In this document: positions 25,173-56,187 of the stretch, piece by piece
How positions within the stretch are numbered: position 1 is the stretch's first letter
Layout: every line of letters begins with the position of its first letter
From: Gammaproteobacteria bacterium
Lineage (GTDB): Bacteria; Pseudomonadota; Gammaproteobacteria; WOZS01
Reading direction: 5' to 3'
Assembly: GCA_011620135.1 (NCBI GenBank)
Contig: WOZS01000058.1
Location: 31,534 to 95,533, forward strand
Length of the DNA: 64,000 nt
Notes under the pieces: model-generated
What the model was told of the DNA's origin: nothing
Seen by the model: the letters and a program-made list of their open reading frames with translations, nothing else
The model's database searches: none
Program-made: the position numbers and the translations under genes

Positions 25173-25505
<333 letters not shown>

Positions 25506-33390: not shown

Positions 33391-33467
33391 CGGGGTATAG
33401 CGCAGCCTGGTAGCGCGCCTGCTTTGGGAGCAGGATGTCGGGGGTTCAAATCCCTCTACCCCGACCA
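33391..33467 (+). tRNA. tRNA-Pro (anticodon UGG)
   Basis: Cloverleaf folds by hand: acceptor CGGGGTA/TACCCCG, loop TTTGGGA, GGTTCAAAT T-loop, encoded CCA. Confidence 0.9.
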
Positions 33468-33631
33468 ATTTCCTTTTCAAGCGGGCGACCTGGTTCAACA
33501 GCGGGATCATGCCCATGGTCCACTGTGCCGACATAGCCCCCAGCGCCAGGGCGATGCCGGCAAGGCCCATGATGTCGCCAAAGCCTTTCCCGGGGAGCGG
33601 GAGGCAGCTGATAGCCTGCAGATTGCACTGA

Positions 33632-33707
<76 letters not shown>

Positions 33708-38005: not shown

Positions 38006-38470
38006 TCACTCCACGCGATAGCGATCATGGCAGGCCTCGCAGGTCTTGGCTGTCTTGAGGAACTGGGCGGCGAACTGCTGCTTGTCGCCATTTTTGGCTG
38101 TCTCGGCGAGGGTATCTGCGGCCTGCTCCAAGGCTCGTGCCTTCTCCTTGAAGTCGTCCATGTGGCTCCACAGCGCTGCTTTGGTGTCTGTGGGCTTGAT
38201 GCCCTTGGTCTCGGGCGTGAAGCCTTCCCAGGGCAGTTTGGCGAGATAGGCCACATGGGCGGCGCGCACTTGTATCTCCTTGGGGTCGAAGGGCTTGTCA
38301 CCCTTGACCATGGCCCCCAGCTGGGAGAACTGGAAGCCCAGTGCGCCCAGGGCATGGCGGCGGTAGTGTACCAGATCCTTGGGGGCCGCTGCCCAGGCGC
38401 CAAGGGCTGTGGCAACCAGCAGGGCTGCTGCCGGCAGCAGGATGCGTCGTGGCGTGCGATGTGATGGCAT
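38006..38470 (-). CDS. cytochrome c' (class II c-type cytochrome)
   Basis: Signal peptide, four-helix-length protein, C-terminal CEACHDRYR heme-binding motif. Confidence 0.8.
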   Translation of the reverse strand: MPSHRTPRRILLPAAALLVATALGAWAAAPKDLVHYRRHALGALGFQFSQLGAMVKGDKPFDPKEIQVRAAHVAYLAKLPWEGFTPETKGIKPTDTKAALWSHMDDFKEKARALEQAADTLAETAKNGDKQQFAAQFLKTAKTCEACHDRYRVE

Positions 38471-38564
38471 GACTTCTCCCTGGAACCTGAAATCCACCTG
38501 CGGTTGTCTATCCTGCCGCTTGTGCCATGGATTGACGAAAGGACTTCTTGCCGACCATTATGGC

Positions 38565-39605
38565 ATGAAAGATCATTGCTTTTGTGGAAAAATGATGTCA
38601 TCGATCGCCACCCCAGAGCCCCGGCTGTGGCCCGCGTTGTTCGCGGCCCTGCCACCATGGTCATCCCAGGGACACCGTCATTGGCTCACCACCACCCAGG
38701 GCTGTTTCTGGCAGGCCGCCGGTGATCAGGCGTCCCTGGACACCATGGCCCGGGCAGCCTGTGCCCTGCTGGGCCGAAGTGCGGATCTGCGGGAGGATCT
38801 GCTGGCTGCCCTGGCCTTTGGCGTCCAGGCCATGGCCTGGCACTGCTATCTGCGCCCCTGGGCCGAGGCCATCGAGGTGGCCACAGCGGTTGCCACAGGA
38901 CAGGCAGTGATGGCGGTGGCCTACTCGGAGCCGGGAGGCTCGCCAGGGCTGCTCAACACCACAGCGCGGTATGACGGATCAGGCTGGCTGCTTTCAGGGA
39001 GCAAGCAGTACATCACCAATGGCCCACTGGCCGACTGGTTCGTGGTCTTTGCCATGGTCGCAGGAGACCATCCCCGGCGTGAAGCCTTCCTGGTGCCCGC
39101 AGGTGCCGTGCAGGTCACGGCCATGGAAGTGCCGGCGTTGCTGGCCGGCCTGCCCCATGCTCGGCTGGATCTCACAGACGTGCCGGTGGCAGGGCATCAT
39201 CGCCTGCCCCAGGAGCGGGCCCTGGCCGCCGGGCGCCGGCTGCGCCGCGCCGAGGACAGCCTGCGCCTTGCGCTGCTGGCTGCCGCGGTGCGCTTGATCG
39301 TCCGCCGTGGCGCAGCGGACGATCAGCAGACGGCCATCCTGGGCGAAGCGCTGCTCCTGGAGGAGCTGGCCATGGCCGCCCTGGAAGCCCTGGAGGCTGG
39401 GCGGGCCCAGCGCCAGCAGGCCCTGGCGTTGGCGGGCCTCGAGTCGGCCCAGGGTCTGGGCGCCCGGTTGCAGGGCGTGCAGTCCCTGGACGATGATGAC
39501 CACATGCGCTTGCTTCAGGCTTTGCCTGCTGCCCTGGGCCGGGGTGATCCCTGGCGGCTGCGCGCCCGGCTGGGGCGCCTGGCAGGCTCTGGCGAGGAAC
39601 CTTGA
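38565..39605 (+). CDS. acyl-CoA dehydrogenase-like protein (non-canonical, short C-terminus)
   Basis: Middle-domain motifs AYSEPGGSPG...SGSKQYITNGPLADWFVVFA are ACAD-like. The C-terminal region lacks an obvious YEG(T)/catalytic-Glu motif. Start ambiguous (38565 or 38592). Confidence 0.55.
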   Translation: MKDHCFCGKMMSSIATPEPRLWPALFAALPPWSSQGHRHWLTTTQGCFWQAAGDQASLDTMARAACALLGRSADLREDLLAALAFGVQAMAWHCYLRPWAEAIEVATAVATGQAVMAVAYSEPGGSPGLLNTTARYDGSGWLLSGSKQYITNGPLADWFVVFAMVAGDHPRREAFLVPAGAVQVTAMEVPALLAGLPHARLDLTDVPVAGHHRLPQERALAAGRRLRRAEDSLRLALLAAAVRLIVRRGAADDQQTAILGEALLLEELAMAALEALEAGRAQRQQALALAGLESAQGLGARLQGVQSLDDDDHMRLLQALPAALGRGDPWRLRARLGRLAGSGEEP

Positions 39606-39687
39606 GGAACCTGAGGATTGCGGGATTAGGCCATGAAAAAGCAGCCATGATGCCACCTGCCGCCTGGCCACGTGAAGGAGGATTGCC

Positions 39688-39735
39688 ATGCAGGGCCACA
39701 GCATGAGACAACATCATCGACAGGGCGCGCCATGA
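39688..39735 (+). CDS. 15-codon upstream ORF (MQGHSMRQHHRQGAP) translationally coupled to the MoxR gene
   Basis: AAGGAGGA RBS 6 nt upstream of ATG 39688. Its TGA overlaps the MoxR ATG (cATGAg). The MoxR ATG has no SD of its own. Confidence 0.3.
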   Translation: MQGHSMRQHHRQGAP

Positions 39736-40703
39736 GCGTCTCCTTGCAAAAGGACAGCCGGCTTGCAAGTCCCGCCATCGTGGCCGAAGGTCTGGAGCGC
39801 CTGGGCTACATCGCCTCGCCCAGTGTGGCGACCTCGGTCTATGTGTCAGCAGCGCTGGAAAAGCCTCTCTTGGTGGAAGGCCCAGCCGGCGTGGGCAAGA
39901 CCGAGCTGGCCAAAGCACTGGCACAGTACCTGCAAAAGCCGCTGATCCGCCTGCAGTGCTATGAGGGTCTCGACGAGGCCCGGGCGCTCTACGAGTGGAA
40001 ATACGGCAAGCAGCTGCTTTATGTGCAGCTCCTCAAGGACAAGATCGCCGAGCTCACGGCAGGCACCAAAACGCTGGAGCAGGCCCTGGCAGTCATTCAT
40101 GCCCAGGATGAGCTGTTTTTCTCCAGGGACTTTCTGGAGCCCCGCCCCCTGTTGCAGTCCCTGCAGGTGCCAGGCGGTGCTGTCTTGCTGGTGGACGAGG
40201 TGGACAAGGCAGACCCGGAGTTCGAGGCCCTGTTGCTGGAGGTGCTCTCCGATTTCCAGGTGAGCATTCCCGAATTGGGCACCATCGTCGCCACGGAAAA
40301 GCCGCTGGTGGTGCTCACCAGCAACCGCGTCCGGGAGATGGGTGACGCGTTGCGTCGGCGCTGCCTGCATCTCTATCTCAACTTTCCTGATGCTGCCCTG
40401 GAAGAGCGCATCGTGGCCGCCCAGGTGCCCCAGTGCACCGCCCGGCTGCGCGCCCAACTGGTGGCCTTTGTGCATGGCCTGCGCAAGCTGGACCTGCGCA
40501 AGCTCCCCGCCGTGAGCGAGACCATCGACTGGGCACGTACCCTGGTGCTGCTGCATGCCGATCAGCTGGCTTGGGACCTGGTGCAGGATACCCTCAATGT
40601 GTTGCTCAAGTTCCAGGAGGACGCCGAGCAGGTCCATCACCAGGGCCTGCGCCTGGTGCAAGAGGCCTGCCGCGATGGACCGCACGCTGCTGCTCTTCGT
40701 TGA
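39732..40703 (+). CDS. MoxR-family AAA+ ATPase (CoxD-like)
   Basis: LLVEGPAGVGKTELAKALA Walker A, VLLVDEVDKA Walker B, about 320 aa. Confidence 0.85.
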   Translation: MSVSLQKDSRLASPAIVAEGLERLGYIASPSVATSVYVSAALEKPLLVEGPAGVGKTELAKALAQYLQKPLIRLQCYEGLDEARALYEWKYGKQLLYVQLLKDKIAELTAGTKTLEQALAVIHAQDELFFSRDFLEPRPLLQSLQVPGGAVLLVDEVDKADPEFEALLLEVLSDFQVSIPELGTIVATEKPLVVLTSNRVREMGDALRRRCLHLYLNFPDAALEERIVAAQVPQCTARLRAQLVAFVHGLRKLDLRKLPAVSETIDWARTLVLLHADQLAWDLVQDTLNVLLKFQEDAEQVHHQGLRLVQEACRDGPHAAALR

Positions 40704-42015
40704 GGCGCTGCGCCAGGCTGGGGTGCGCATCACGCCTGACGAGACCACAGACGCCTTGCGCATCGCAGGGGAGGTGGGGCTTGCCGAGCGCGATACCCTG
40801 CGTGAGGTGCTGGGTTGCACGCTGGCCAAGTCGGTGGCGGACAAACGGCGTTTCGAGGCCACGTTCCAGCGCTTCTTTGCCCTGCCGGGCTCTTCTGCCG
40901 ATTCCCCCCAGCAAACGGCACCGACAGCCGGGGCCACTGCGGACGATGCAGGCCTGCCGCAGGCCGAGCCTGCAGCTGGTGACCTGTCCCAGGAACCGGG
41001 CGTTATGATGCAGCAGCGCCTCGCCGCCGCCGCCCGGGAGATGCGCATCGACACCATCGCGCTGCCCACCCAGAAGGGCCTCTATACCCGCAGGCTGGCC
41101 ATGGCCGCAGGTGGCGAGGAGTTGGAGGCTGCCTGGCAGTTGGCCCAGCGCCAGGGCGATCTCGAGACCGCAGCGCAGCTTGCAGCCCAGGGCGAGCGGT
41201 TGCGCGCCCATGCCCGCGCCATGGTGGAGCAGGCCTATCAGCTCTACGGCAAGGGGCGCATGCAGGCCCTCAGCGACATCATCCTGCAGGAAAAGCCGCT
41301 GTCGGCGCTGGAGACCCGGGATCTCAAGCGCATGCGTCCTTTGGTGGAGGCCATGGCCCAGCGCCTCAAAGACAAGCGGCGCATCACGCGCCATCTGCGC
41401 CGCGGCACGCTGGATGTGCGGCGCACGCTGCGCGCCAACATGGGGCACGATGGCGTCCTGATGGAGGTGGCCTGGCACAGGCGGCTGCAGCAGCAGCCCA
41501 GGCTCGTGGCGCTGTGCGACGTGAGCCGTTCGGTGGAGCGTTATGTGCGCTTTTTGCTGATGCTGCTCTTCGAGCTCAAGTCGGTGATCCGCGATCTGCA
41601 GGTCTTTGCCTTTGCCGGCGATGTCGCCTGTGTCAATGAACTGTTCCAGCGGCTGAGCCTCGAGCAGGCCCTCGATGCCGTGCCCCACGCCGCCCCCGGC
41701 GGGGCCACCGACTATGGCCAGCTGTGGCGTCACATGACAGCCCATCAGCTCCATCTCTTCAACCGGCAGACCACCGTGCTGGTGCTGGGCGATGCCCGCT
41801 CCAACGACCTCGACCCGGAAGTGGCGTTGCTGCGCCGCCTCTCTGCCCAGGTGAAGCGGGTCATGTGGCTTGATCCCGAGCCACGCGTCCAGTGGGGCTG
41901 GGGGGATTCGGTCATCTGGCGTTACCGGCCGTTGCTACATGGCTTGCATGAATGTAGTACCTTGTTGCAATTGGAGCACGCCGTGAACCGGGCTCTGGTG
42001 GATTTCGGGGCATGA
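40675..42015 (+). CDS. VWA-domain protein (CoxE-like partner of the MoxR ATPase)
   Basis: Overlaps the MoxR 3' end. C-terminal VWA domain with CDVSRS MIDAS-like motif. Confidence 0.8.
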   Translation: MDRTLLLFVEALRQAGVRITPDETTDALRIAGEVGLAERDTLREVLGCTLAKSVADKRRFEATFQRFFALPGSSADSPQQTAPTAGATADDAGLPQAEPAAGDLSQEPGVMMQQRLAAAAREMRIDTIALPTQKGLYTRRLAMAAGGEELEAAWQLAQRQGDLETAAQLAAQGERLRAHARAMVEQAYQLYGKGRMQALSDIILQEKPLSALETRDLKRMRPLVEAMAQRLKDKRRITRHLRRGTLDVRRTLRANMGHDGVLMEVAWHRRLQQQPRLVALCDVSRSVERYVRFLLMLLFELKSVIRDLQVFAFAGDVACVNELFQRLSLEQALDAVPHAAPGGATDYGQLWRHMTAHQLHLFNRQTTVLVLGDARSNDLDPEVALLRRLSAQVKRVMWLDPEPRVQWGWGDSVIWRYRPLLHGLHECSTLLQLEHAVNRALVDFGA

Positions 42016-42168
42016 TGGTCATGGCGGCGCGTAGCCGCGCGTCGGGTCTGTTTGAGATTTCTTGATTTTTTGAGCCCCGCAGCCGCTATACTTTTCAGGG
42101 TAAAATCAATGCCTGCTGGCGGCGTTTATGGACGGCAGGTGATCGGGTACTGCGGTGAGGATGAGGCA

Positions 42169-42483
42169 ATGGGTATAGGCAGGATCGATGGTAAAGGGCC
42201 TCCTGTGCCGGGCGTGCGGCCAGCTGCGCTGGAAGGTAAACCGCTGGTGCAGCAGGAGCGCAGCCTTCCGGTTTCCCAGGAAGACACAGTCTCGGTCGCT
42301 TTTGGTTCCCTGGTCCAGAGGCTCGTGGCGGGTGCTGTGGAGAGCCACGCTGTGGATCCAGCACGCCTCCAGGCCTTGCGCCAGGCCATCACCGATGGCA
42401 CCTACACCATCGACCCAGACCAGATCGCCCAGCGCATGGTGGACATGGAGCGCGGCCTGTGGTTTGGTCTGCCCTGGACATAA
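42169..42483 (+). CDS. flgM: anti-sigma-28 factor FlgM
   Basis: C-terminal LQALRQAITDGTYTIDPDQIAQRMVDME is the FlgM sigma-28-binding helix; about 105 aa. Confidence 0.7.
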   Translation: MGIGRIDGKGPPVPGVRPAALEGKPLVQQERSLPVSQEDTVSVAFGSLVQRLVAGAVESHAVDPARLQALRQAITDGTYTIDPDQIAQRMVDMERGLWFGLPWT

Positions 42484-42495
42484 GGAGGAGCGACC

Positions 42496-43134
42496 ATGGA
42501 CGATTCCTGGATTCGCCGCCAGGACCAGCAGAGCCCAGGACCAGCAGAGCCAGGACACGAGTCCAGGGTTCCCCGGTATCCCGGGCAAACTGAGCGTGGC
42601 GGGGATGGGTGCACTGGGGCGGATGCCGGGGATGGGGATGCGGCCTGTGAGAGACACGTGCTCGAGTTGCTCGCCAACCTGGAGGCGGTGTTGCGTGCCG
42701 AGCACCAGGTGTTGGTGGAGGCCGCCGCCGGTGCCCTGACCACCCTGGCACGCCAGAAAATGGCGTTGCTGGCCTCCATCGAGCAGTCCTGCCAGGAATT
42801 GGGAATGGCCCGGGGACGGGCATGGCTCGAGGAAGACCGTGCTGCCATCGAGGTCTTGGCACGCTGTCGCGGTCTCAACCACATCAATGGCAACCTGATC
42901 GCCCTGCGTCGCAGACAAGTGGCTCAGGAGCTCGCGGTTCTGGGTGTCTCCTTGCCAGAAACAGAGCCGGCAGAAGCACTGCTGGCGATGCCTGGTCCAG
43001 GGGCTGACCAACATGGATCAGTCCATGCCTCAGCACATGGGGCTTCAGGGTGGACGGCGGCTGCCGCCATCCCCACAGAGCACGACCCCCAGGGCGAGGC
43101 GGTGCCACGCCGCAACATCCAGCATCTGGCCTGA
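42496..43134 (+). CDS. flgN: flagellar export chaperone FlgN-like
   Basis: Position immediately after flgM. Helical LELLANLEAVLRAEHQVL...LLASIEQ pattern. Low-complexity N-terminal extension. Confidence 0.55.
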   Translation: MDDSWIRRQDQQSPGPAEPGHESRVPRYPGQTERGGDGCTGADAGDGDAACERHVLELLANLEAVLRAEHQVLVEAAAGALTTLARQKMALLASIEQSCQELGMARGRAWLEEDRAAIEVLARCRGLNHINGNLIALRRRQVAQELAVLGVSLPETEPAEALLAMPGPGADQHGSVHASAHGASGWTAAAAIPTEHDPQGEAVPRRNIQHLA

Positions 43135-43164
43135 ACCCTCACCCATGTTGGATAAGCCATCACC

Positions 43165-43950
43165 ATGAGCACTACCCAGCCATCCCCGGACCTGCACCTC
43201 CTGCACAACCGCATGGAGCGCATCGCCGTGTTGCGACGCTTATGTAAAGAACGCCGGGAGCTCTCCTGCGTGCTGCTGGATGATGAGGGTCGACCCCATG
43301 ATGACAAAATCTATCAAACCGTGATCACCGCCGTGGATGCGCAGGCCGGTCAGCTGCAGGTCAGCCCCCTCAATCCAGCCGAGGGACGGGCTGCGTTGTG
43401 CAATGGTGCCTTGTTGAGTTGTTCTGGCCAGCTGGAGCGCGAAACGATCTCTTTCACCACCAACTGGCTCAGGAACGTCGGTCTTCTCAGGGTTCACCAC
43501 GTCCTGGCTCTGCCGCATAGCATCTACTCCAGCGAATCGCGCCAGGCGGAACGTATCGAGGTGCCCAAGACGGTGCCCTCCAAGCTGGTTCTGCATGATG
43601 GTCCGCGACAGGTGGCCCAGGGCTGGGTTGCCGACATTTCCGCAGGTGGCGTCTCTGGCGTGGTGACCGCCATAGAGGATCTGGATTACCTTTTGGCCCC
43701 AGGTACCGAACTGTTCCCCTGTTCGCTTGAGATCAAGGGCTACCTGCAGTTGACTCAATGGCGACTGAGGCTGCGCTTGGTGCGCTGGAGGCAGCAGCGC
43801 GATTATCTGCTGGGAGGCGAATTCGTGCAGCTGACACCGCAAGCCCAACGCGATGTGGAGCTGGCAGTGGCCGAGCTGGAGCGCGTGCGCTTGGCACAGT
43901 TGGCGCAGATGCATGAAGAGCAATCCGGGCAGCAGTCCGGAGGGGGCTAA
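43165..43950 (+). CDS. PilZ-domain flagellar brake protein (YcgR/FlgZ-like)
   Basis: RQAER (RxxxR) and DISAGG (DxSxGG) c-di-GMP binding motifs with an N-terminal YcgR-like domain, between flgMN and fliC as in Pseudomonas flgZ. Confidence 0.7.
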   Translation: MSTTQPSPDLHLLHNRMERIAVLRRLCKERRELSCVLLDDEGRPHDDKIYQTVITAVDAQAGQLQVSPLNPAEGRAALCNGALLSCSGQLERETISFTTNWLRNVGLLRVHHVLALPHSIYSSESRQAERIEVPKTVPSKLVLHDGPRQVAQGWVADISAGGVSGVVTAIEDLDYLLAPGTELFPCSLEIKGYLQLTQWRLRLRLVRWRQQRDYLLGGEFVQLTPQAQRDVELAVAELERVRLAQLAQMHEEQSGQQSGGG

Positions 43951-44085
43951 ACATCACGGCGGTATTGCCGCTCAATAAGCACGAGACATAGGTTTTGGGG
44001 GATCTCAGAAGCCCCATCTGAGCAATCGAGGCTACCAAAAGCTTGACTGCATTGTTTTTTATATCGAGCATCGAGCTTGATGTGT

Positions 44086-44114
44086 TAAGGAAAGTGTTAA
44101 GGAATGTATAAGGA
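44086..44114 (+). promoter_or_regulatory. three tandem TAAGGA motifs in the fliC 5' leader (candidate CsrA/RsmA sites)
   Basis: GTGTTAAGGAAA / GTGTTAAGGAAT / GTATAAGGAGAA repeat units at 44086-91, 44098-103 and 44109-14. The last overlaps the SD, 10 nt before the ATG. Confidence 0.3.
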
Positions 44115-44123
44115 GAAAGCAGT

Positions 44124-45263
44124 ATGATCGTTGTGAATACCAACCCAACATCGCTTCTGGCGCAAAACAATCTCACCCAAAGCACCAGTAGCCTGACCCA
44201 GGCCATCAACCGGCTCTCGTCTGGCTCGCGGATCAATAGCGCAGCCGATGATCCTGCCGGCCTTGCGGTGGCCTCGCCTCTGCAGTCCCGGGTGGCCGGC
44301 CTGTACCAGGCGAGCCGCAACGCATTGGAATCCACCAACGTGACCGACATCGCCGACAGCGCCCTCAGCGTGATGCAGGACAACCTTACCCGTATCCGCC
44401 AGATATCCGTACAGGCTGCCAACGGCATCTATAACAAGCAGAATCGTGCCAATCTCCAGCTCGAGGTGGATCAGCTGACCCAGGAAATCTCCCGCCTCGT
44501 CAAGAGCACCAACTACAACGGCTACCAGCTGTTAGGCTCCAAAAAGTCGCAGTTTACCTTCCAGATCGGTTCCGATGGCGATGGCTCCAAGACAGTCAGC
44601 TCGAGAAAGGCCGCCAAGGTGAACGGCAAGGACGCAATGACCCGGCAAGGCCCTTCGACCAAATACCAGGTCATCAACGGCGAGCGGTTGCGCCAATCTG
44701 CTGTGAGGCCTGCCGGGAATGCAACCAACACCATCACCTCAAGCTTCAATAAGCTGACGGGCAAGGGCAAGCATACGCCTGATTTCATCAGCAAACCCCT
44801 GAACATAGTGACAAACCTTACAAACAAAACATTGAATGTGACGGGGAAAGTCGGGAACGCTCTCACACTGGGCAGGGTCGAGGCCTTCGGCAACTTGGCG
44901 ACCAGGGCGCCAGCTGGCAAGGGGCTCAATACCTATGACGGCAATCTGGCTGCCACGGGCTCGCTCAGTGTCAAGACCCAGTCTGCGGCGCGGCAGACCA
45001 TCAAGGATGTCACCAGCGACGTCGATCTGGTCACCGCGACCCGCGCCCAGTTCGGTGCGTTGGCAAACCGCTTTGCGTATGTGCAGCGCACCAATGATGC
45101 GGCGTCCCAGGCCTCGGAGAGCTCCATCAGTCGCATCATGGATGCCGACTACGCTCGAGAGAGCGCCAACTATGCGTCTTCCCAGATCCGTCAGCAAGCA
45201 GGTGCCGCGGTGTTGGCCCAGGCTAACGCCATGCCGCAGATTGCGCTTACGCTGCTGCGGTAA
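44124..45263 (+). CDS. fliC: flagellin
   Basis: N-terminal NTNPTSLLAQNNL..LSSGSRINSAADDPAG and C-terminal ...QQAGAAVLAQANAMPQIALTLLR flagellin domains. AT-richer central variable region. Confidence 0.95.
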   Translation: MIVVNTNPTSLLAQNNLTQSTSSLTQAINRLSSGSRINSAADDPAGLAVASPLQSRVAGLYQASRNALESTNVTDIADSALSVMQDNLTRIRQISVQAANGIYNKQNRANLQLEVDQLTQEISRLVKSTNYNGYQLLGSKKSQFTFQIGSDGDGSKTVSSRKAAKVNGKDAMTRQGPSTKYQVINGERLRQSAVRPAGNATNTITSSFNKLTGKGKHTPDFISKPLNIVTNLTNKTLNVTGKVGNALTLGRVEAFGNLATRAPAGKGLNTYDGNLAATGSLSVKTQSAARQTIKDVTSDVDLVTATRAQFGALANRFAYVQRTNDAASQASESSISRIMDADYARESANYASSQIRQQAGAAVLAQANAMPQIALTLLR

Positions 45264-45276
45264 GGCCTTCATGTCC

Positions 45277-45308
45277 CCAGAACCGGCGTCTCCAGGCGCC
45301 GGTTCTGG
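45277..45308 (+). terminator. strong hairpin downstream of fliC (terminator candidate, weak U-tract)
   Basis: CCAGAACCGGCG-tctccagg-CGCCGGTTCTGG, a perfect 12-bp stem, 13 nt after the fliC stop. Confidence 0.45.
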
Positions 45309-45382
45309 CACGGGACAAGCCCAAAAAGCAAGAGCGAAAAGCGAAAAGGTGAGGGCGAGCAAGGGCAGGAGGGGATGACATC

Positions 45383-45838
45383 ATGGCTATTGATACAGCA
45401 GGCGTTACCGGGGGCCTGATGCAGGCGGCGGTGCAACAGCAGCGTCCTCGGGTGGGCGATGGTTCACAAGCTGCCGCAATGCCAAATCAGGGCGCAGGGA
45501 TGCTGTATGGAAGAGGTAGCCGGGATTCCCCGGCTCCTGCCATGCCGTCATGGTCCGCCAAGCTTGCGGTGGACCCCCAGCAGGAAATGGCGCAACTGCG
45601 CCAGCGTTTGGAGCAATGGGTGCAGGCCGTCATGACCAGCTCGGCGCGCGAGTTCAATTTCAGCAAGGATCAACTGACAGGCGAACTGGTGACCAGCGTT
45701 GTCAACCCCAAGACAGGCGAGCTGGTGCGCCAGGTGCCCAGTGCGATCGATCTGCAGGTGCAGTTTTGGTTGCAGAGGTTTTATGATGCCCATGACTCCA
45801 TGCAGGCACAGGGCGGAAATTTCAACGCCTTGGCCTGA
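45383..45838 (+). CDS. flaG: flagellar protein FlaG
   Basis: C-terminal REFNFSKDQLTGELVTSVVNPKTGELVRQVPS matches the FlaG family; position between fliC and fliD. Confidence 0.7.
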   Translation: MAIDTAGVTGGLMQAAVQQQRPRVGDGSQAAAMPNQGAGMLYGRGSRDSPAPAMPSWSAKLAVDPQQEMAQLRQRLEQWVQAVMTSSAREFNFSKDQLTGELVTSVVNPKTGELVRQVPSAIDLQVQFWLQRFYDAHDSMQAQGGNFNALA

Positions 45839-45903
45839 TGAACCAGAGAACGGGTTGCACGAGCTTTCAGTACATTTCAACACATATAAAAAAAGGGTGA
45901 GCC

Positions 45904-47712
45904 ATGGCCAGTACAAGTGGGATCTCAGGTGCAGGCGGGCTTGACATACCAGGGTTGGTCCAGTCCTCTACCACGGCTCAGCAGCAAAAGGTCAAGGCCA
46001 GTCAGGCCGATGCCACGCGGTACCAGGACCAGGTAGAGGGCTATAAGGAGCTGGACAAGGCGCTGAGCGCCTTGGACAAGGCCGCCTTGGATCTCAGTGC
46101 CAACGGAACGGTGTTGGCTGCCAACAGCAGCAAACCCGGCGTGGTGGGCGTCAAGGCCACAGGTGCCGGTGGTGACGTGGGCGTACATGAGGTCGACGTC
46201 CAGCAGGCCGCCACGTTTCATACCCTGGCCTCCAAGCCATTGAAGGATGGACTTATTCCCACCAAGCTTGCCGAGCCTGTCCGCGCTGAGGGTGATGGCG
46301 CCGGGAATCTTGGCGCCGCCCGGCAGAACTACCTGGAGGACCGCCTTGCGCAGGCACAGCAGCGTGCCCAGAAATCACCAGAGAAGGCTGCATCACCAAA
46401 GGAGAAGGAGCGGGTGGCACGTCTTCAGCAGAACCTGGACCAGGTCAAACAAAACCAGGAAAAACAGGATACGGCTACCAAGCCGCTGAAGGATGCCGGG
46501 GATCAGGTGAACAAGGCTCTTGAGCGCTTCAAACCAGCTGAGCCAAGGTTCGAGGGCCCATTGCGTCCCGGTACCCCATCTCCCGATCTGATCATGGGGC
46601 CTGGCGCGCTGTGGATCAGTGTGGGTGGCAAGGGTTTCCTGGTGAGTGTAACCCCTGCCGACATGACCCTTGGAGGGGTGAGTGACGCCATCAATAACGC
46701 CCAGGGCAACAAAGGTTCCAAGGGGGTCACAGCCAGCGTCGTCTATGGCACAGAAGGTGCTCGGCTGGTGCTGCGCGCCAACGAGGCAGGGGCTGATCGG
46801 GAGGTCAAGGTGCAGGCATTGGCTATCCCTGGTTCGGGATTGGCCATGCTGGACTCCCGCCGTATGGAAACCCTGAGCAAGGGCCAGGAGGCGCTTGCCA
46901 CGGTGGATGGCGTGGCGGTGAAGGGGCGCAGCAACACACTCAACAATGTCATCCCGGGGGTGACGCTGACCATTGCCGGCCCGGGCAATGCCACTGTCCA
47001 GGTTCAAGCCGATAGCGACAATGCCAAAAAAAGCCTGCAAGCTTTTGCCGATGCCTATAATGCCTACCGGATGACCATCGACCAACTTGATGCCGATGTG
47101 CTCAAGAATGATTTGACGCTCAGCACCGTACGCAACGATATCACCAATTCGCTGACCACCCCGCCCCCAGTTCAGAACCAGTTGACACAACTGCCGGGAC
47201 AGGTGGCCGGTGTGGTGGGCAGGATACCCGTGATCGGGCAACAGTTGGCTCCCACCATCGCTGCGATGCAGCCACCAGGTCAGAACTTGCAGCAGCGTCT
47301 CAGTCAGACTGACAGTCAGTTCCAATACCTGGCTGATATCGGGGTGACCCTGCAGAGGGATGGTACCATGAAGGTGGATCAGCAGGCCCTCGATGCTGCC
47401 TTGAGCAAAACCCCGGGTTCTGTCAACGCTCTGCTGACCGAACCTGTGACCAGCGCCGGTTCCCGTGTCGATCGCGCCATCAGGCAGCTGCGGGGCACCC
47501 AGGGGGTCGTGTACAACGCAGAGAACCAGCTCAAGGAGAATATAAGAACCAATCAGCAACAGGCTGAGCAGCTCAATCAGGATCTCAAGGACTCCCAAGA
47601 TTACTATACCAAGAAGTTCAGTGATCTCAATGGCACCCTGTCCCAGGCAAGCGCCACCAGCAACATGGTTGCCCAGCGCCTTGGTAGTGTGCCCGCGCCC
47701 GTTGCTGGATGA
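45904..47712 (+). CDS. fliD: flagellar filament cap protein FliD
   Basis: N-terminal SGAGGLDIPGLV...YKELDKALSAL and C-terminal coiled-coil; 602 aa. Confidence 0.85.
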   Translation: MASTSGISGAGGLDIPGLVQSSTTAQQQKVKASQADATRYQDQVEGYKELDKALSALDKAALDLSANGTVLAANSSKPGVVGVKATGAGGDVGVHEVDVQQAATFHTLASKPLKDGLIPTKLAEPVRAEGDGAGNLGAARQNYLEDRLAQAQQRAQKSPEKAASPKEKERVARLQQNLDQVKQNQEKQDTATKPLKDAGDQVNKALERFKPAEPRFEGPLRPGTPSPDLIMGPGALWISVGGKGFLVSVTPADMTLGGVSDAINNAQGNKGSKGVTASVVYGTEGARLVLRANEAGADREVKVQALAIPGSGLAMLDSRRMETLSKGQEALATVDGVAVKGRSNTLNNVIPGVTLTIAGPGNATVQVQADSDNAKKSLQAFADAYNAYRMTIDQLDADVLKNDLTLSTVRNDITNSLTTPPPVQNQLTQLPGQVAGVVGRIPVIGQQLAPTIAAMQPPGQNLQQRLSQTDSQFQYLADIGVTLQRDGTMKVDQQALDAALSKTPGSVNALLTEPVTSAGSRVDRAIRQLRGTQGVVYNAENQLKENIRTNQQQAEQLNQDLKDSQDYYTKKFSDLNGTLSQASATSNMVAQRLGSVPAPVAG

Positions 47713-48140
47713 GCACAGATCCTGATGACCGAGGAAGAAGGCCCATGAGAGACGATGCCGCCCGCCAGGGCTACCTGGAGGCCAACCGGGATGCTCTTGC
47801 GGCCCAAGTGGATTCCCCTATACGCATTATACTGACGCTATTCAATGAGAGCCTTGCTGCCATAGCCAAGGCCCAGGCGGCATTACGCTGCGCCGATCGG
47901 GAAATTTTCAAGGAACAGGTGATCCGAAGCGTGACCATCATCGAAGGGCTGCGGATACATCTTGATTATGAGCGTGGTGGAGAGGTGGCAGTCAGCCTCG
48001 GTAAGGTCTATGACTGTGTGGTGGCGCGCCTTCTGGAGGCACACCGCTGCCGGGATAAAGCCCTGCTCCAGGAGGCTATCCAGTTGCTCGAGGTGGTTCG
48101 CGATGCCTGGGGTGAGCTCCTGCAAGCCACACAGACCTGA
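47709..48140 (+). CDS. fliS: flagellar export chaperone FliS
   Basis: Four-helix FliS pattern (..II.GL...LDYERGGEVA..L..VY.Y...RL..A). ATGA overlap with fliD. Confidence 0.85.
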   Translation: MSTDPDDRGRRPMRDDAARQGYLEANRDALAAQVDSPIRIILTLFNESLAAIAKAQAALRCADREIFKEQVIRSVTIIEGLRIHLDYERGGEVAVSLGKVYDCVVARLLEAHRCRDKALLQEAIQLLEVVRDAWGELLQATQT

Positions 48141-52752: not shown

Positions 52753-53142
52753 GTGCAAGCCTACCCAAAAGCAGCTCGGTTGCCAGACCGCGCCTCATTC
52801 GAGCGGGTATTGCGCCATGGGAAGCGGTACCGCGCCTCTGGCCTGACCGTGGCTTATCTGCCCAATGCTGTTTTCAGGCCACGGCTGGGGCTTGTGGTGC
52901 CGAAGCGCCACGTGCGCCATGCCACCATGCGCAATCGGATCAAGCGCATCATCCGCGAATCCTTCCGGATGCAAGGAACCCGGCTGCAGCCAGGGGATGT
53001 GGTGGTCATGGTGTACAGGGAAGCAGCCAATCTACCGCCAGGCGGGCTGCGCCAGTCCATGGATGGTTTGCTGGCCCGGTGCGCCCAGCGCCCGCTGGAG
53101 GAAGATGGCATGGATGAGAGGACGCTGTGCGCGATCAGCTGA
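52753..53142 (+). CDS. rnpA: RNase P protein component
   Basis: PKAARL..SFERV...RNRIKRIIRESFR is RnpA-like. Confidence 0.85.
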   Translation: MQAYPKAARLPDRASFERVLRHGKRYRASGLTVAYLPNAVFRPRLGLVVPKRHVRHATMRNRIKRIIRESFRMQGTRLQPGDVVVMVYREAANLPPGGLRQSMDGLLARCAQRPLEEDGMDERTLCAIS

Positions 53143-54779
53143 TGGATCATGTCCGTCTTGCCTTGCTGTTCGGGGTCATTTTTTCAGCCTTCCTGCTGTG
53201 GCAGGCATGGCGTCAGGAGCATGATCCCCTGGCGACACCACAGCAGGTGGGTTCCTTGCCCAGCCCAGGGCTGCCCGCGGCAGACCTGCCCCCGACTCTG
53301 CCAGGCATGGGCAAACCAAGAGAAGCAATCCTCTCTGGAGAACCTTCCCCGCCTGGCTCTGGTCAGGCCCTCGAGCTGCGGACAGATGTCTGGCGCGGCC
53401 GTCTGCCCCTGCAGGGTGCGGATATCAGTTATCTGGAGTTGCCTGGCTATCTGCAGCATCCCAATCCAGGCTCTGCACCTGTGGTTTTGCTGGACCAAGA
53501 GCATCCGTATGTTCTTGAGACTGGCCTTGTGAGTCCGGACCCCATCCCCCTGCCCACCCATCATGAAATCTATCAAGTCGCTCAAGCAGTGGAACGCCAG
53601 GAGCAGGTGGCCCAGGTTCGTTTCATGTGGGAGCGCGATGGCATCCAGGTGGAAAAGACTTACCAAGCCCAAAAAGGGCAGTACATCGCCGAGATCAGCT
53701 ATCGGGTGCGCAACACCACCACCCAGCCCATTCGCCTGCGCCAGTATGGCCAGCTGAAAAGGCGTGAGGGAGAGCCTGCGCAAAAAAGATTTGTCCATAC
53801 CTACAATGGCGGCGCCCTTTACGATGGGCAGTACGAAAAAGTGCCCCTGAAGCGCCTGCAGGATGGACAACTTGAGCGCTCCACACGCGGCGGCTGGGTG
53901 GCCATGGTGCAGCATTATTTTGTGGGCGCCATCCTGCCGCCATCTGGGGAAACCAATCAACTCTATGGGCGCGCCCTGTCCAAGGAGGTGGGCGTCATGG
54001 GTTTCCTTGGGGAAACCAAGACCATCGCCCCCGGGGGAGAGATCATGTTGCAACAAAGGGTCTTTCTCGGGCCGCAGCTCCAGGACCTGCTGCCAAAGGT
54101 GGTCCCTGGGCTTGATCGCGTGGTGGATTATGGCTATATCACCCTGCTGGCCAAGCCTGTCTTCCACATTCTGCACTGGTTCTACAAATTGCTCGGTAAC
54201 TGGGGCTGGTCGATCGTGGCCATTACCTTCGTGCTCAAGCTTGCCTTCTACAAGCTCACCGAGACGCAATATCGCTCCATGGCCAGGATGAAGCAGTTTG
54301 CCCCCCGCATCCAGGCGCTGCGGGAGCGTTATGCGGAGGATCGAGCCCGGTTGCAGCAGGCCATGATGGAGCTTTATCGCAAGGAAAAATTCAACCCATT
54401 CGGCGGCTGTCTGCCCATGCTGGTCCAGATGCCAGTCTTCATTGCCCTGTACTGGGTCTTGGTGGAAAGCGTGGAGTTGCGCCAAGCCCCCTTTGTCCTC
54501 TGGATCAAGGACCTCTCGGAGCCTGATCCCTACTACCTGTTGCCCATACTGTTCGGGGTGAGCATGCTGGTCCAGCAACGCCTGGCGGGAACCAATACGA
54601 CCATGGACCCCGCCCAGGCGCGCATCATGCAGTTCATGCCCATCGGGCTTGCCATCTTCTTTTCCTTTTTTCCATCGGGCCTGGTGTTGTATTGGCTGGT
54701 GAGCAACGTGATCAGCATCACCCAGCAGCGCTGGATTGGAAAGCGCATGGCCAGGCACGCCAGCCATGCGGCCACCTGA
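53142..54779 (+). CDS. yidC: membrane protein insertase YidC
   Basis: N-terminal TM, large periplasmic domain, C-terminal 5-TM core (..PMLVQMPVFIALY..). Confidence 0.95.
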   Translation: MDHVRLALLFGVIFSAFLLWQAWRQEHDPLATPQQVGSLPSPGLPAADLPPTLPGMGKPREAILSGEPSPPGSGQALELRTDVWRGRLPLQGADISYLELPGYLQHPNPGSAPVVLLDQEHPYVLETGLVSPDPIPLPTHHEIYQVAQAVERQEQVAQVRFMWERDGIQVEKTYQAQKGQYIAEISYRVRNTTTQPIRLRQYGQLKRREGEPAQKRFVHTYNGGALYDGQYEKVPLKRLQDGQLERSTRGGWVAMVQHYFVGAILPPSGETNQLYGRALSKEVGVMGFLGETKTIAPGGEIMLQQRVFLGPQLQDLLPKVVPGLDRVVDYGYITLLAKPVFHILHWFYKLLGNWGWSIVAITFVLKLAFYKLTETQYRSMARMKQFAPRIQALRERYAEDRARLQQAMMELYRKEKFNPFGGCLPMLVQMPVFIALYWVLVESVELRQAPFVLWIKDLSEPDPYYLLPILFGVSMLVQQRLAGTNTTMDPAQARIMQFMPIGLAIFFSFFPSGLVLYWLVSNVISITQQRWIGKRMARHASHAAT

Positions 54780-54828
54780 ACAGGCCTTGCGGCACCATGG
54801 CAGGCCATGCCAGGTTGGCTCCATACCC

Positions 54829-56187
54829 ATGGCCCAGGAAACCATTGCCGCCATGGCCACAGCCCCAGGGTGTGGCGCCATTGGCATTGTGCGGGTCTGC
54901 GGACCAGCCACCCGTGATGTGGCCATGGCCATTACCGGTACGGTACCTCCCGCCCGCACCGCCACATTGGCCACATTCAGCAACCAGCAAGGGGCATCCA
55001 TTGACGAGGGCATTGCCATTTTTTTTGAGGCGCCGGCATCTTATACTGGGGAGGATTGCCTCGAACTGCAAGGGCATGGCGGTCGTGTCGTGCTCAACCA
55101 GGTTCTGGAGGCTGTGCTCGCCTGTGGTGTGCGTCTGGCGCATCCTGGTGAATTTACCCAACGGGCCTTTCGCCACGGCAAGCTGAATCTCATCCAGGCC
55201 GAGGCAGTGGCGGATCTGATCCAGGCCAGCACGCCACAGGCCGCGCTGGCGGCGTCGCGTTCGTTGCGTGGCGTCTTTTCGGATGCCGTCTATGAGATGG
55301 CCGAGATGCTCGCCGAGATGCGCAGCACCATGGAGGCCTCTATCGATTTTGCCGAGGACATGGACGCAGGGCTGGATATCATGGGCGCAGTCCGGGTCAT
55401 GCTGCAGGCGCTGCGCGCCAGGCTGGCGGGTGTCTTGACTCAGGCCCGTGAAGGCCGGGCGGTGGCCGAAGGCCTGCAGGTGGTTCTGGTGGGGGCGCCC
55501 AACGCCGGAAAATCCAGCCTGTTCAATGTGCTGAGTGGTGAGGAGGCGGCCATTGTCACCGCCATGCCGGGCACCACCAGGGATGCCTTGCTGCGCCAGA
55601 TCCTCTTGGAAGGCCTGCTGATCAATCTGACGGATACAGCGGGTCTGGCCCCATTGCCGGATCCCATCGAGGCTATGGGCATAGAGAAAACGAAAATGTC
55701 CTGCCTAAGGGCCGATCTGCTGCTGGCGGTGGCCAGCGACGATGAACCTTTCAGTGTCCAGCAGGAGATGGTGCAACGGCTGCTGCAGGAACTGGGCAGC
55801 CATGTGGCGGTCCTTTGGGTGCGCAACAAGATCGATCTGACGGGTTCTCCTGCCGCCATCGAGGTGCAAGACGGCGCCAGCATGGTCTATTGTTCAGCGC
55901 TGAATGGGGTCGGCATGGATTTGCTGCGCCAGGCCATCAAAGACCAACTGCTGCAAGGGCATAGCAATCCGGAGCCCGCCTTTGCAGCCCGGCGGCGCCA
56001 TGTGGAATCCCTCACCCAGGTCAATGCCTTCCTTCAGGCCACAGACCATTTCCTGGCCCAGGGCCCGCTTGAGCTGGCCGCCGAGCAATTGCGCCAGGCA
56101 CAGGTGGCATTGGGCGAGATCGTGGGGGAATCCAGCAACGAGGCATTGCTGGAGCGCATCTTCAGCAGCTTCTGTATCGGCAAGTGA
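54829..56187 (+). CDS. mnmE: tRNA modification GTPase MnmE
   Basis: G-domain [10 protein letters not shown]; ends ...FCIGK (MnmE C-terminal CxGK). Confidence 0.95.

What the first reader, a model, noticed from the sequence alone, without database searches (positions are those of the whole stretch)
38565..42015. Orphan MoxR(CoxD-like) ATPase / VWA(CoxE-like) pair with a coupled leader uORF, next to an ACAD-like protein and cytochrome c'
MoxR AAA+ plus VWA pairs are maturation chaperones for specific metalloenzymes (CoxD/E for CO dehydrogenase, NorQ/D for NO reductase, CbbQ/O for RuBisCO). No such client is encoded nearby. The only neighbours are a truncated ACAD-like flavoprotein-fold gene in the same orientation and a divergent cytochrome c'. 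Translation of the ATPase appears to depend on a 15-codon uORF (strong AAGGAGGA RBS, ATGA stop/start overlap) and the ATPase/VWA genes overlap by 29 nt, which suggests tightly stoichiometric expression. This looks like a candidate uncharacterised maturation module.
Basis: partly seen in the sequence, partly recalled or inferred. Interest (0 to 1): 0.6.

Follow-up and report, generated by a model that had tools for sequence, protein, structure and literature searches.

The report
ACAD-like protein with MoxR–VWA chaperone pair
A three-gene operon pairs a catalytically degenerate acyl-CoA-dehydrogenase-fold protein with a MoxR ATPase and its VWA partner; the same trio recurs in many unrelated bacteria, which points to a so far undescribed client for this class of protein-remodelling machines.

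Summary

The pair is not orphan. The ACAD-like gene belongs to a distinct ACAD-fold subfamily (about 512 clusters at 50% identity). In 54 of 65 testable metagenome loci this subfamily sits directly upstream of the same MoxR-VWA type. Most junctions there are -4 or -1 nt overlaps. The taxa include Alpha-, Beta- and Deltaproteobacteria and SAR324.

The ACAD-like protein keeps the three-domain ACAD fold. It has lost the catalytic Glu and both ACAD signature motifs, and it carries its own invariant residues (E112, K137, H188, R217, E220, D221).

Only the window's clade has a 106-126 nt spacer with the uORF. Its SD and ATG are conserved in four lineages. The peptide, its length and the ATGA overlap are not.

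Cytochrome c' is only a syntenic neighbour.

My best reading is that the ACAD-fold protein is the dedicated client or adaptor of a MoxR-VWA remodelling machine. This rests on gene context only. I found no paper describing such a trio.

The parts
38532..38561 (+). Promoter-like site (TTGACG, 18-nt spacer, CATTAT) in the divergent intergenic region between cytochrome c' and the ACAD-like gene
   Evidence: Consensus scan: 2 sites found in 4.4 kb against 0.4 expected. This is a pattern match only. It would place the transcript start after the ATG at 38565, which favours the 38595 start.
38595..39605 (+). ACAD-like gene (336 aa; alternative starts at 38565 and 38592). It has the three-domain acyl-CoA-dehydrogenase fold but degenerate signatures, and belongs to the MoxR-linked ACAD-like subfamily.
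   Evidence: - Pfam PF02770 only.
- AF2 model with pLDDT 81.5 and pTM 0.83. Foldseek top hits are all ACADs, TM 0.6-0.79.
- The catalytic YEG Glu and the QxHGGYGY motif are absent, while xITNG is kept.
- Family invariants E112, G135, K137, H188, R217, E220 and D221 are present.
- dN/dS is 0.31-0.40.
- The start matches P0001, P0005 and P0006.
39606..39731 (+). 126-nt spacer (leader) between the ACAD-like stop and the MoxR start. It is specific to the window's clade.
   Evidence: Of 70 ACAD-like to MoxR junctions, 44 are -4 or -1 overlaps. Only the window clade has a 106-126 nt spacer. There is no Rfam hit, no terminator-like site inside it, and the fold is no more stable than shuffled sequence (z = 0.26).
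39675..39735 (+). Strong SD (AAGGAGGA, 39675-39682) plus a 15-codon uORF (39688-39735, MQGHSMRQHHRQGAP*). Its TGA overlaps the MoxR ATG (ATGA).
   Evidence: Read from the sequence. GGAGG + ATGCAG is conserved in WIN, L001, L002 and L004. The peptide (9-17 codons), the reading frame relative to MoxR and the ATGA overlap are not conserved.
39732..40703 (+). MoxR-class AAA+ ATPase (323 aa)
   Evidence: - Pfam AAA_5 at 54.3 bits. NCBIfam MadB_ATPase scores 318 bits, below its 475 cutoff.
- Walker A and B are intact.
- More than 8000 homologues at E<=1e-20.
- dN/dS is about 0.10.
- The start is fixed by the 11-nt indel, which breaks the upstream in-frame GTG in L001 and L002.
40675..42015 (+). CoxE-type VWA protein (446 aa). 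It has an N-terminal domain of unknown type and a C-terminal VWA domain with a MIDAS site. The gene overlaps MoxR by 29 nt.
   Evidence: - PF05762 VWA_CoxE at 109.8 bits, residues 223-434. NCBIfam MadC scores 133 bits, below its 600 cutoff.
- The MIDAS motif DVSRS starts at residue 282.
- The same 29-nt overlap occurs in L001, L002 and L004.
- A VWA gene follows MoxR in 80 of 85 loci.
42025..42054 (+). Terminator-like GC-rich hairpin with a T-rich tail, 10 nt after the VWA stop. It is the likely end of the operon.
   Evidence: Pattern scan: 8-bp stem with 6 GC pairs, tail GGTCTGTTTG. This is a pattern match only.

Best explanation
Region 38562-42054 is a single operon: ACAD-like gene, leader uORF, MoxR AAA+ gene and CoxE-type VWA gene. 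It is a divergent copy of a widespread three-gene module.

Proposed mechanism, by analogy with NorQ/NorD and CbbQ/CbbO:
- The VWA protein sits on a MoxR hexamer.
- Its MIDAS-bound metal ion docks onto an acidic patch of the ACAD-fold protein. The family-invariant E220-D221 is a candidate patch.
- ATP hydrolysis remodels that protein so that a cofactor (flavin or metal) can be loaded, or an inhibitory ligand released.

The ACAD-fold protein has lost the canonical catalytic base and the second FAD signature. It is therefore not an ordinary acyl-CoA dehydrogenase.

In most lineages the three ORFs are translationally coupled by -4 or -1 overlaps. In the window's clade a spacer has separated the ACAD-like gene from MoxR. 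There, a short uORF with a strong SD delivers ribosomes to the weakly SD-equipped MoxR start by termination and reinitiation.

Shown: gene order, fold, motifs, conserved linkage, and conservation of the uORF start.
Inferred: the physical interaction, the client role, what is inserted or released, and the coupling by the uORF.
For: Linkage from the ACAD-like side:
- P0008, P0140 and P0142 each lie directly upstream of an AAA_5 gene and a VWA_CoxE gene.
- A metagenome scan with the subfamily motif gave 54 of 65 testable loci with MoxR immediately downstream.
- After dereplication at 80% identity there are 41 lineages, most of them linked to MoxR.

Linkage from the MoxR side:
- The ACAD-like gene is the most frequent neighbour.
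- It is adjacent on the same strand in 12-13 of 80 genome loci.
- These loci are scattered over the MoxR tree rather than forming one clade.

Coupling:
- Of 70 junctions, 44 are -4 or -1 overlaps.

The ACAD-like proteins form a distinct family:
- 512 representative clusters at E<=1e-30.
- Invariant E112, G135, K137, H188, R217, E220 and D221.
- ACAD profiles match only the N-terminal and middle domains.
- The catalytic Glu is absent, yet the full ACAD fold is predicted.

The machine looks active:
- Walker A, Walker B and MIDAS motifs are intact.
- All three genes are under purifying selection.

Operon limits:
- A promoter-like site lies upstream and a terminator-like site downstream, with none between the genes.

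Mechanistic precedent:
Against: - There is no biochemical or interaction evidence at all. Everything rests on gene context.
- About 85% of loci with this MoxR-VWA type lack an adjacent ACAD-like gene. Their neighbours are heterogeneous, so the pair may have other or more general clients.
- Two nested ACAD-like subclades have no MoxR nearby.
- Many of the 54 linked loci are close relatives: 42 lie in a single 60-71% identity band.
- The window clade's ACAD-like protein is the most divergent member. It lacks the family's C-terminal W-x-R-D motif and evolves fastest (dN/dS 0.31-0.40), so its role may be decaying here.
- For the uORF, the ATGA overlap is absent in 2 of 4 lineages, and the MoxR start has a weak G-rich SD of its own in 3 of 4.
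Confidence: 0.55

Rival explanations
1. The ACAD-like protein is not a client. It is a non-catalytic adaptor or sensor subunit, for example one that binds an acyl-CoA ligand. It would direct the MoxR-VWA machine to another target, or pair with a canonical ACAD as a beta-type subunit, as in heteromeric ACADs.
For: - The catalytic Glu and the second FAD signature are lost, while the fold and the xITNG motif are kept.
- A full canonical ACAD lies directly beside the ACAD-like gene in L016, L153 and L086/L087.
- Weak NCBIfam hits to PimC and PimD, the large and small subunits of pimeloyl-CoA dehydrogenase.
- A MarR regulator lies upstream in L017, L089 and L090, which suggests control by a ligand.
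- From my own knowledge, not tested here: alpha2beta2 ACADs such as M. tuberculosis FadE26/FadE27 contain a subunit that does not bind FAD.
Against: A canonical ACAD lies within 1.5 kb in only 9 of 102 ACAD-like loci. None is found in the window: the ACAD-like HMM found no second ACAD in 28-52 kb, and none of the ORFs annotated elsewhere in the 64 kb is one. The family's own strictly invariant polar residues (E, K, H, R, E, D) look more like an active or cofactor site than a passive scaffold.
Confidence: 0.2
2. The MoxR-VWA pair is a general housekeeping remodeller, or serves a client encoded elsewhere (for example a CO dehydrogenase-type, NOR-type or other metalloenzyme). The ACAD-like gene merely shares an operon with it.
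For: This MoxR family is very large and is mostly found without an ACAD-like neighbour, in varied contexts: nitroreductase, DAO-type oxidoreductase, thioesterase, MoaA, RibBA, peptide ABC transporter, and a BFN-plus-TPR gene pair. The rest of the window's genome could not be searched.
Against: 83% adjacency from the ACAD-like side, across distant taxa and with overlapping stop and start codons, is far more than chance or synteny would give. There is no CbbQ_C domain, and no significant sequence match to any solved NorQ or CbbQ structure. No nor, cox or cbb genes were found among the window's annotated ORFs.
Confidence: 0.17
3. The trio is a MoxR-VWA based conflict or anti-phage system of the kind described for NTP-dependent ternary systems.
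For: MoxR-VWA cores are used in such systems (PMC7159879, listed but not read).
Against: - There are no meaningful PADLOC hits; the only matches are P-loop-level matches for MoxR.
- The VWA protein has no effector domain.
- The locus lies among housekeeping and flagellar genes in a conserved syntenic position.
- The third gene is a metabolic-enzyme fold.
Confidence: 0.03
4. The uORF is not a functional coupling device. Either the SD-ATG is an incidental or residual initiation site, or it acts as a regulatory leader unrelated to reinitiation.
For: - Peptide sequence and length are not conserved (9, 9, 15 and 17 codons).
- The stop lies 14-26 nt upstream of the MoxR start in L001 and L002.
- The leader fold is no more stable than shuffled sequence.
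- There is no Rfam family.
Against: GGAGG plus ATGCAG is retained in four lineages with dS of 0.3-0.6, while the flanking spacer has diverged and carries indels. The uORF always ends at or just before the MoxR start. The MoxR start itself has at best a weak SD. Everywhere else MoxR is coupled to the upstream ORF.
Confidence: 0.3

Closest known systems
CoxD/CoxE of Oligotropha carboxidovorans (MoxR AAA+ ATPase plus VWA protein that mature the [CuSMoO2] site of CO dehydrogenase; PMC3471820 and PMC4240915, abstracts seen)
   Same: The VWA protein is a member of Pfam VWA_CoxE. Both are two-gene AAA+/VWA units of similar sizes, and the presumed logic is the same: ATP-driven remodelling of a folded apo-protein.
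   Different: No coxMSL genes, or any molybdoenzyme, were found among the window's annotated ORFs or beside the 80 related loci examined. The conserved partner here is an ACAD-fold protein.
NorQ/NorD (insertion of the FeB iron into cytochrome c-dependent NO reductase; PMC9976466, PMC13036017)
   Same: It is a MoxR hexamer with a single VWA partner. The MIDAS site is used for the target rather than for the ATPase, and the target's acidic surface residues are required. This is the mechanistic template I use.
   Different: There is no CbbQ_C domain and no significant sequence match to solved NorQ or CbbQ structures. The VWA family is different (CoxE type), there is no nor operon, and the candidate client is a soluble flavoprotein-fold protein rather than a membrane haem-copper oxidase.
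NCBIfam MadB (NF047784) and MadC (NF047783) families
   Same: These are the closest curated models. MoxR aligns over nearly the whole MadB profile (positions 4-295 of 298, 318 bits), and the VWA domain matches MadC.
   Different: Both scores are well below the curated cutoffs (318 against 475, and 133 against 600), so these proteins are sister families and not members. No Mad-type model matches the ACAD-like protein. I could not find what 'Mad' denotes.
Canonical acyl-CoA dehydrogenases, and the non-catalytic subunits of heteromeric ACADs (PimC/PimD; FadE26/27-type, the latter from my own knowledge)
   Same: The three-domain ACAD fold, the middle-domain Pfam hit, and the retained x-I-T-N-G motif.
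   Different: The catalytic Glu of the YEG motif and both PROSITE-type signatures are missing. The protein has family-specific invariants: TE.G.HP[KR], PE.xH and KPFRTxED. It is linked by operon to a MoxR-VWA pair, which I did not find described for any ACAD.

Membership tests
MoxR-class AAA+ ATPase | AAA+ module of the AAA_5 type with Walker A (GxxxxGK[ST]) and Walker B (hhhhDE) | tested here: met
   PF07728 at 54.3 bits against a cutoff of 22. GPAGVGKT starts at residue 50 and VLLVDE at residue 151.
MoxR-class AAA+ ATPase | Encoded next to a VWA-domain partner | tested here: met
   The VWA gene overlaps MoxR by 29 nt. The pair is conserved in 80 of 85 loci.
CoxE-type VWA protein (Pfam PF05762) | Score above the Pfam gathering threshold, and a MIDAS DxSxS motif | tested here: met
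   109.8 bits against a cutoff of 26.4, residues 223-434. DVSRS starts at residue 282.
CoxD/CoxE proper (CO dehydrogenase maturation) | Located in a cox cluster with coxM, coxS and coxL | tested here: not met
   No molybdo-hydroxylase genes were found: the 20 largest ORFs outside the 33-48 kb stretch are housekeeping genes and the genes flanking the operon are annotated through syntenic loci. None of the sampled neighbour clusters of the 80 related loci is one either. The rest of the genome was not testable.
NorQ/NorD or CbbQ/CbbO (CGN subfamily) | CbbQ_C domain on the ATPase, and a nor or cbb gene context | tested here: not met
   No CbbQ_C hit appears among 15 Pfam families at E<=0.01. PDB sequence matches are limited to midasin and ClpC P-loop stretches. 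No nor or cbb genes were found in the window.
NCBIfam MadB / MadC equivalogs | Whole-protein score at or above the curated cutoff | tested here: not met
   MadB scores 318.2 against 475, and MadC 133 against 600. The result is the same for the L031 pair.
Acyl-CoA dehydrogenase superfamily | Three-domain fold: N-terminal alpha domain, middle beta domain, C-terminal alpha domain | tested here: met
   The AF2 model (pLDDT 81.5) has helices at 24-100, strands at 106-199 and helices at 206-331. All top Foldseek PDB hits are ACADs, with E about 1e-11 to 1e-12 and TM up to 0.79.
Acyl-CoA dehydrogenase superfamily | All three Pfam domains (PF02771, PF02770, PF00441 or PF08028) above threshold | tested here: not met
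   Only PF02770 passes. Distant subfamily members pass for the N-terminal and middle domains but never for the C-terminal domain.
Catalytically competent ACAD | Catalytic Glu (the YEG position, or the IVD-type position before the conserved Arg), plus the GSD and QxHGGxGY FAD signatures | tested here: not met
   In alignment with canonical ACADs, IYEGT is replaced by ALGRG, LTEPQAGSD by YSEPGG--S, and HGGYGY is absent. The residue before R217 is Leu or Phe. This rests on alignment only. Cofactor binding was not testable.
MoxR-linked ACAD-like subfamily (defined here) | Invariant E112, G135, K137, H188, R217, E220 and D221 | tested here: met
   All are present in the window protein. They are 98-100% conserved in 140 family representatives.
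MoxR-linked ACAD-like subfamily (defined here) | C-terminal W-x-R-D motif, and direct stop/start coupling to MoxR | tested here: not met
   The window has W-R-L-R. The junction is a 126-nt spacer instead of a -4 or -1 overlap.
Translationally coupled leader uORF | Own SD and start codon, with a stop at or overlapping the downstream start; conserved in relatives | tested here: inconclusive
   The SD and ATG are conserved in 4 of 4 lineages, but the ATGA overlap in only 2 of 4, with a 14-26 nt gap in the others. Actual coupling cannot be tested with these tools.
Known anti-phage defence systems (PADLOC) | Significant match of the components to system models | tested here: not met
   The ACAD-like protein and the VWA protein have 0 hits. 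MoxR has only short P-loop matches.

The most novel reading that the evidence does not exclude
The ACAD-fold protein is a new kind of MoxR-VWA client. It would be a scaffold that has given up canonical flavin and acyl-CoA dehydrogenase chemistry. Its strictly invariant Glu/Lys/His/Arg/Glu-Asp constellation would be a cofactor site, possibly a metal site, that can be filled or reactivated only by ATP-driven remodelling. That would make it the first MoxR-VWA 'activase' known for a flavoprotein-fold enzyme, defining a widespread and unannotated three-gene system (MarR is sometimes a fourth gene).
Probability: 0.2. Interest if true: 0.8.

Novelty: new variant of a known kind. Interest (0 to 1): 0.55.

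Why it matters
MoxR-VWA pairs are abundant in bacteria, but the client is known for only a handful: cNOR, CO dehydrogenase, RuBisCO, and lysine decarboxylase or respiratory complexes for RavA. Most pairs are annotated simply as 'AAA family ATPase' and 'VWA domain-containing protein'.

A conserved, translationally coupled partner of a different structural class gives a concrete and testable client for one large MoxR-VWA family. It also flags several hundred 'acyl-CoA dehydrogenase family' annotations as probably wrong about function.

The window's clade offers a natural experiment. Direct gene overlap has been replaced by a short uORF, which is useful for studying how stoichiometric expression is maintained.

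Tried and rejected
- **Meaning of 'Mad'.** They returned only unrelated MadB proteins (a lantibiotic dehydratase, Phycomyces genes, malonyl-ACP decarboxylase) and an irrelevant PA3972 paper.
- **My guess that Mad means 'mycolic acid desaturase'.** It found no support, so I dropped it.
- **First gene caller.** Greedy selection of the longest ORFs failed in high-GC loci. I replaced it with a codon-usage log-odds caller.
- **Upstream in-frame GTG at 39672 as the MoxR start.** Rejected. An 11-nt indel in L001 and L002 breaks that frame.
- **Programmed frameshift fusing the uORF to MoxR.** Rejected. The relative frame differs between lineages.
- **RNA element in the leader.** There is no Rfam hit. 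The fold is not stable (z = 0.26). The pairing of the SD with MoxR codons 4-6 in the minimum-free-energy structure is not conserved.
- **Cytochrome c' as part of the module.** It is linked only in the five syntenic contigs.
- **Riboflavin-operon linkage.** The genes upstream of RibBA turned out to be methylmalonyl-CoA mutase and MeaB, and this occurs in only three loci.
- **Heteromeric ACAD partner next door.** Seen in only 9 of 102 loci.
- **Organism identification.** Cluster look-up and contig look-up both failed to name it.
- **Word-indexed profile search for the ACAD-like family.** It was swamped by canonical ACADs. The exhaustive representative search was used instead.

Full report
**1. 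What is in the sequence**

The stretch 38.0-42.1 kb contains these features.

| Feature | Coordinates | Main evidence |
|---|---|---|
| Cytochrome c' | 38006-38497 (-) | PF01322, 117 bits |
| ACAD-like ORF | ends 39605 (+) | PF02770 only, 42.2 bits against a cutoff of 33.3 |
| MoxR-class AAA+ gene | 39732-40703 (+) | AAA_5; Walker A GPAGVGKT, Walker B VLLVDE |
| CoxE-type VWA gene | 40675-42015 (+) | PF05762, 109.8 bits; MIDAS DVSRS |

- The MoxR stop and the VWA start overlap by exactly 29 nt. The same overlap is seen in three related lineages.
- Upstream of MoxR lies AAGGAGGA (39675-39682), followed by an ATG at 39688.
- That ATG opens a 15-codon ORF, MQGHSMRQHHRQGAP. Its TGA overlaps the MoxR ATG as ATGA.
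- A promoter-like site lies at 38532-38561.
- A terminator-like hairpin at 42025-42044 closes the unit.
- No terminator-like site lies between the genes.
- The promoter-like site and the homologues P0001, P0005 and P0006 place the ACAD-like start at 38595 rather than 38565.

**2. The window as a whole**

- The 20 largest ORFs outside the 33-48 kb stretch are housekeeping genes: IMPDH, three alpha-amylase-family genes, glmS/glmU, the atp operon, nrdD, yidC-mnmE-mnmG and cheA.
- The genes flanking the operon are amidase, epimerase, UDP-glucose dehydrogenase and acylphosphatase on one side. On the other are flgM, flgN-like, PilZ-type, flagellin, flaG and fliD. These are annotated through syntenic loci.
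- I found no NO reductase, CO dehydrogenase, RuBisCO or canonical ACAD. The ACAD-like HMM also found no second ACAD in 28-52 kb. Smaller ORFs elsewhere in the window were not scanned.
- The organism could not be named.

**3. The MoxR-VWA pair**

- The ATPase belongs to a very large family. More than 8000 proteins match at E<=1e-20. Identity is 60-68% in Parvibaculum, Bradyrhizobium, Burkholderiales, Acidobacteriota and deltaproteobacterial bins.
- The closest curated models are NCBIfam MadB and MadC. Both scores are far below the curated cutoffs: 318 against 475, and 133 against 600.
- No solved structure is close in sequence.
- In 80 genome loci fetched with a MoxR profile, the VWA gene almost always follows MoxR.
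- The other neighbours are heterogeneous:
  - a BFN-domain gene plus a TPR gene
  - a peptide ABC transporter
  - MoaA
  - a Zn-dependent dehydrogenase
  - a HAD hydrolase
  - MarR
  - RibBA, behind methylmalonyl-CoA mutase and MeaB
  - TANGO2
  - a nitroreductase
  - acyl-CoA thioesterase II
  - a DAO-type FAD oxidoreductase

**4. The ACAD-like protein is the recurrent partner**

The window's protein has only seven close homologues among 5.8 billion proteins. All lie in fully syntenic contigs, so that conservation says nothing about linkage.

Linkage seen from the MoxR side:
- Among the distant MoxR loci, an ACAD-like ORF is the most frequent neighbour.
- An HMM built from these ORFs finds it adjacent on the same strand in 12 of 80 loci. 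L052, recovered by a separate tblastn-based search, makes it 13.
- These loci are scattered across the MoxR tree rather than forming one clade.

Linkage seen from the ACAD-like side is much stronger:
- Three proteins found by profile search (P0008, P0140, P0142) each lie directly upstream of an AAA_5 gene and a VWA_CoxE gene. Two of them have a MarR gene in front.
- A metagenome scan with the subfamily motif EP[GKE][ATR]G[ATG]HPK gave 80 loci. Of the 65 with enough downstream sequence, 54 have MoxR immediately downstream.
- After dereplication at 80% identity there are 41 lineages. Most are linked to MoxR. Two nested subclades have lost the linkage.
- Of 70 ACAD-like to MoxR junctions, 44 are -4 or -1 overlaps.

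A caveat: 42 of the 54 linked loci fall in a single 60-71% identity band.

**5. What kind of protein the ACAD-like is**

- ACAD profiles match only the N-terminal and middle domains in every member.
- The AlphaFold model of the window protein (pLDDT 81.5, pTM 0.83) is nevertheless a complete three-domain ACAD fold.
- All top Foldseek PDB hits are ACADs, with TM up to 0.79.
- Aligned with canonical ACADs:
  - the GSD signature is degenerate
  - the x-I-T-N-G flavin-face motif is kept
  - the catalytic Glu of the I-Y-E-G-T motif is replaced
  - the Q-x-H-G-G-Y-G-Y motif is absent
- An exhaustive profile search finds 512 representative clusters at E<=1e-30, mostly 300-325 aa long.
- Across 140 of these representatives, E112, G135, K137, H188, R217, E220 and D221 are 98-100% conserved.
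- The window clade is the longest branch of the family tree.
- It lacks the family's C-terminal W-x-R-D motif.
- It evolves under relaxed but still purifying selection. dN/dS is 0.31-0.40, against 0.18-0.23 for the VWA gene and about 0.10 for MoxR.

**6. The uORF**

Only the window clade has a 106-126 nt spacer between the ACAD-like gene and MoxR. Four lineages were compared (WIN, L001, L002, L004); their synonymous divergence is 0.3-0.6.

- Conserved: GGAGG plus ATGCAG.
- Not conserved: the rest of the spacer, which has diverged and carries an 11-nt indel.
- The peptides differ: MQGHSMRQHHRQGAP, MQHHRMTTA, MQHRRMTPA and MQDHRPDQQPDQRQSAP.
- The ATGA overlap holds in WIN and L004.
- In L001 and L002 the uORF stops 14-26 nt before the MoxR start, which is a GTG in L002.
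- The indel rules out the in-frame GTG at 39672 as the MoxR start. It also rules out a conserved frameshift fusion.
- There is no Rfam family and no unusually stable fold.

The simplest reading is that the uORF replaces the direct ORF-to-ORF coupling found elsewhere. It would do so by termination and reinitiation at a MoxR start with a weak SD. This is an inference.

**7. Mechanism proposed**

I take NorQ/NorD as the template. There, a MoxR hexamer carries one VWA protein. The NorD MIDAS residues are dispensable for binding NorQ but essential for producing active cNOR. Acidic surface residues of the target are required (PMC9976466).

On that basis I propose:
- The VWA protein docks through its MIDAS site on the ACAD-fold protein. 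The invariant E220-D221 is a candidate docking patch.
- MoxR uses ATP to remodel the ACAD-fold protein, either to load a cofactor or to reactivate it.

Rival readings, with my estimates (the first three and the best explanation at 0.55 are alternatives; the uORF item is a separate question):

| Rival reading | Estimate |
|---|---|
| The ACAD-like protein is an adaptor or non-catalytic subunit | 0.20 |
| The pair serves other or general clients | 0.17 |
| The trio is a defence system | 0.03 |
| The uORF is not a coupling device (separate question) | 0.30 |

**8. Novelty**

None of the ten literature searches found a paper on an ACAD-MoxR-VWA trio. No curated Pfam or NCBIfam model describes the ACAD-like subfamily.

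One reservation remains. I could not find out what NCBIfam's MadB and MadC refer to. If that system includes an ACAD-fold component, the novelty would be lower.

I rate this a new variant of a known kind: a MoxR-VWA remodelling system with a new class of partner. The interest is moderate because all the evidence is genomic.

Noticed in passing
window 42052-48140: A flagellar late-gene cluster lies directly downstream of the operon: flgM (PF04316), an flgN-like gene, a PilZ-type gene, flagellin, flaG, fliD and probably fliS. The order is the same in all syntenic contigs.
   Followed up: partly
window 52753-58088, 20143-25472 and 16195-19418: The window carries yidC-mnmE-mnmG, the F1Fo atp operon and glmS/glmU. 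From general knowledge this set often lies near oriC. Cumulative GC skew rises monotonically, with no switch in the window.
   Followed up: no
window 4963-11841: Three consecutive alpha-amylase-family genes of 712, 602 and 1026 aa, which look like a glycogen or trehalose conversion set.
   Followed up: no
window 33391-33707: tRNA-Pro(TGG) on the + strand and tRNA-Ala(CGC) on the - strand face each other 165 nt apart.
   Followed up: no
L057, L060, L067, L068, L069, L081, L084 (downstream of the VWA gene): In a deltaproteobacterial / Binatia group, the same MoxR-VWA pair is followed by a conserved gene for a bifunctional-nuclease-domain protein (PF02577), usually with a TPR_21 gene after it, instead of an ACAD-like gene.
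   Followed up: partly
L063:1722-2675 and L076:6894-7844: In Spirochaetota, a 316-318 aa ORF directly upstream of MoxR matches the ACAD-like HMM and PF02770 only weakly. It may be an even more divergent branch of the partner family.
   Followed up: partly
L153:3697-7741 and L150: This concerns members of the two ACAD-like subclades that have no MoxR nearby. In L153 the ACAD-like gene follows a full canonical ACAD and precedes an amidohydrolase. In L150 it follows a CobW-type GTPase and an SDR.
   Followed up: partly
L086:5634-6603 compared with L087:4201-5169: Two contigs carry the identical ACAD-like protein. In one of them the MoxR gene is split into two ORFs of 153 and 136 aa, which is either a frameshift or an assembly error.
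   Followed up: no
L058, L059, L080 (upstream of MoxR): In three loci (L080 is a Myxococcota bin; L058 and L059 are unclassified or Deltaproteobacteria bins), methylmalonyl-CoA mutase, MeaB, a protein without Pfam hits and RibBA precede MoxR-VWA on the same strand. MeaB was identified only in L058 and L059.
   Followed up: partly
L025, L056, L060, L067, L081: A TANGO2-family gene (PF05742) recurs within three genes upstream of the MoxR-VWA pair, on the opposite strand.
   Followed up: no
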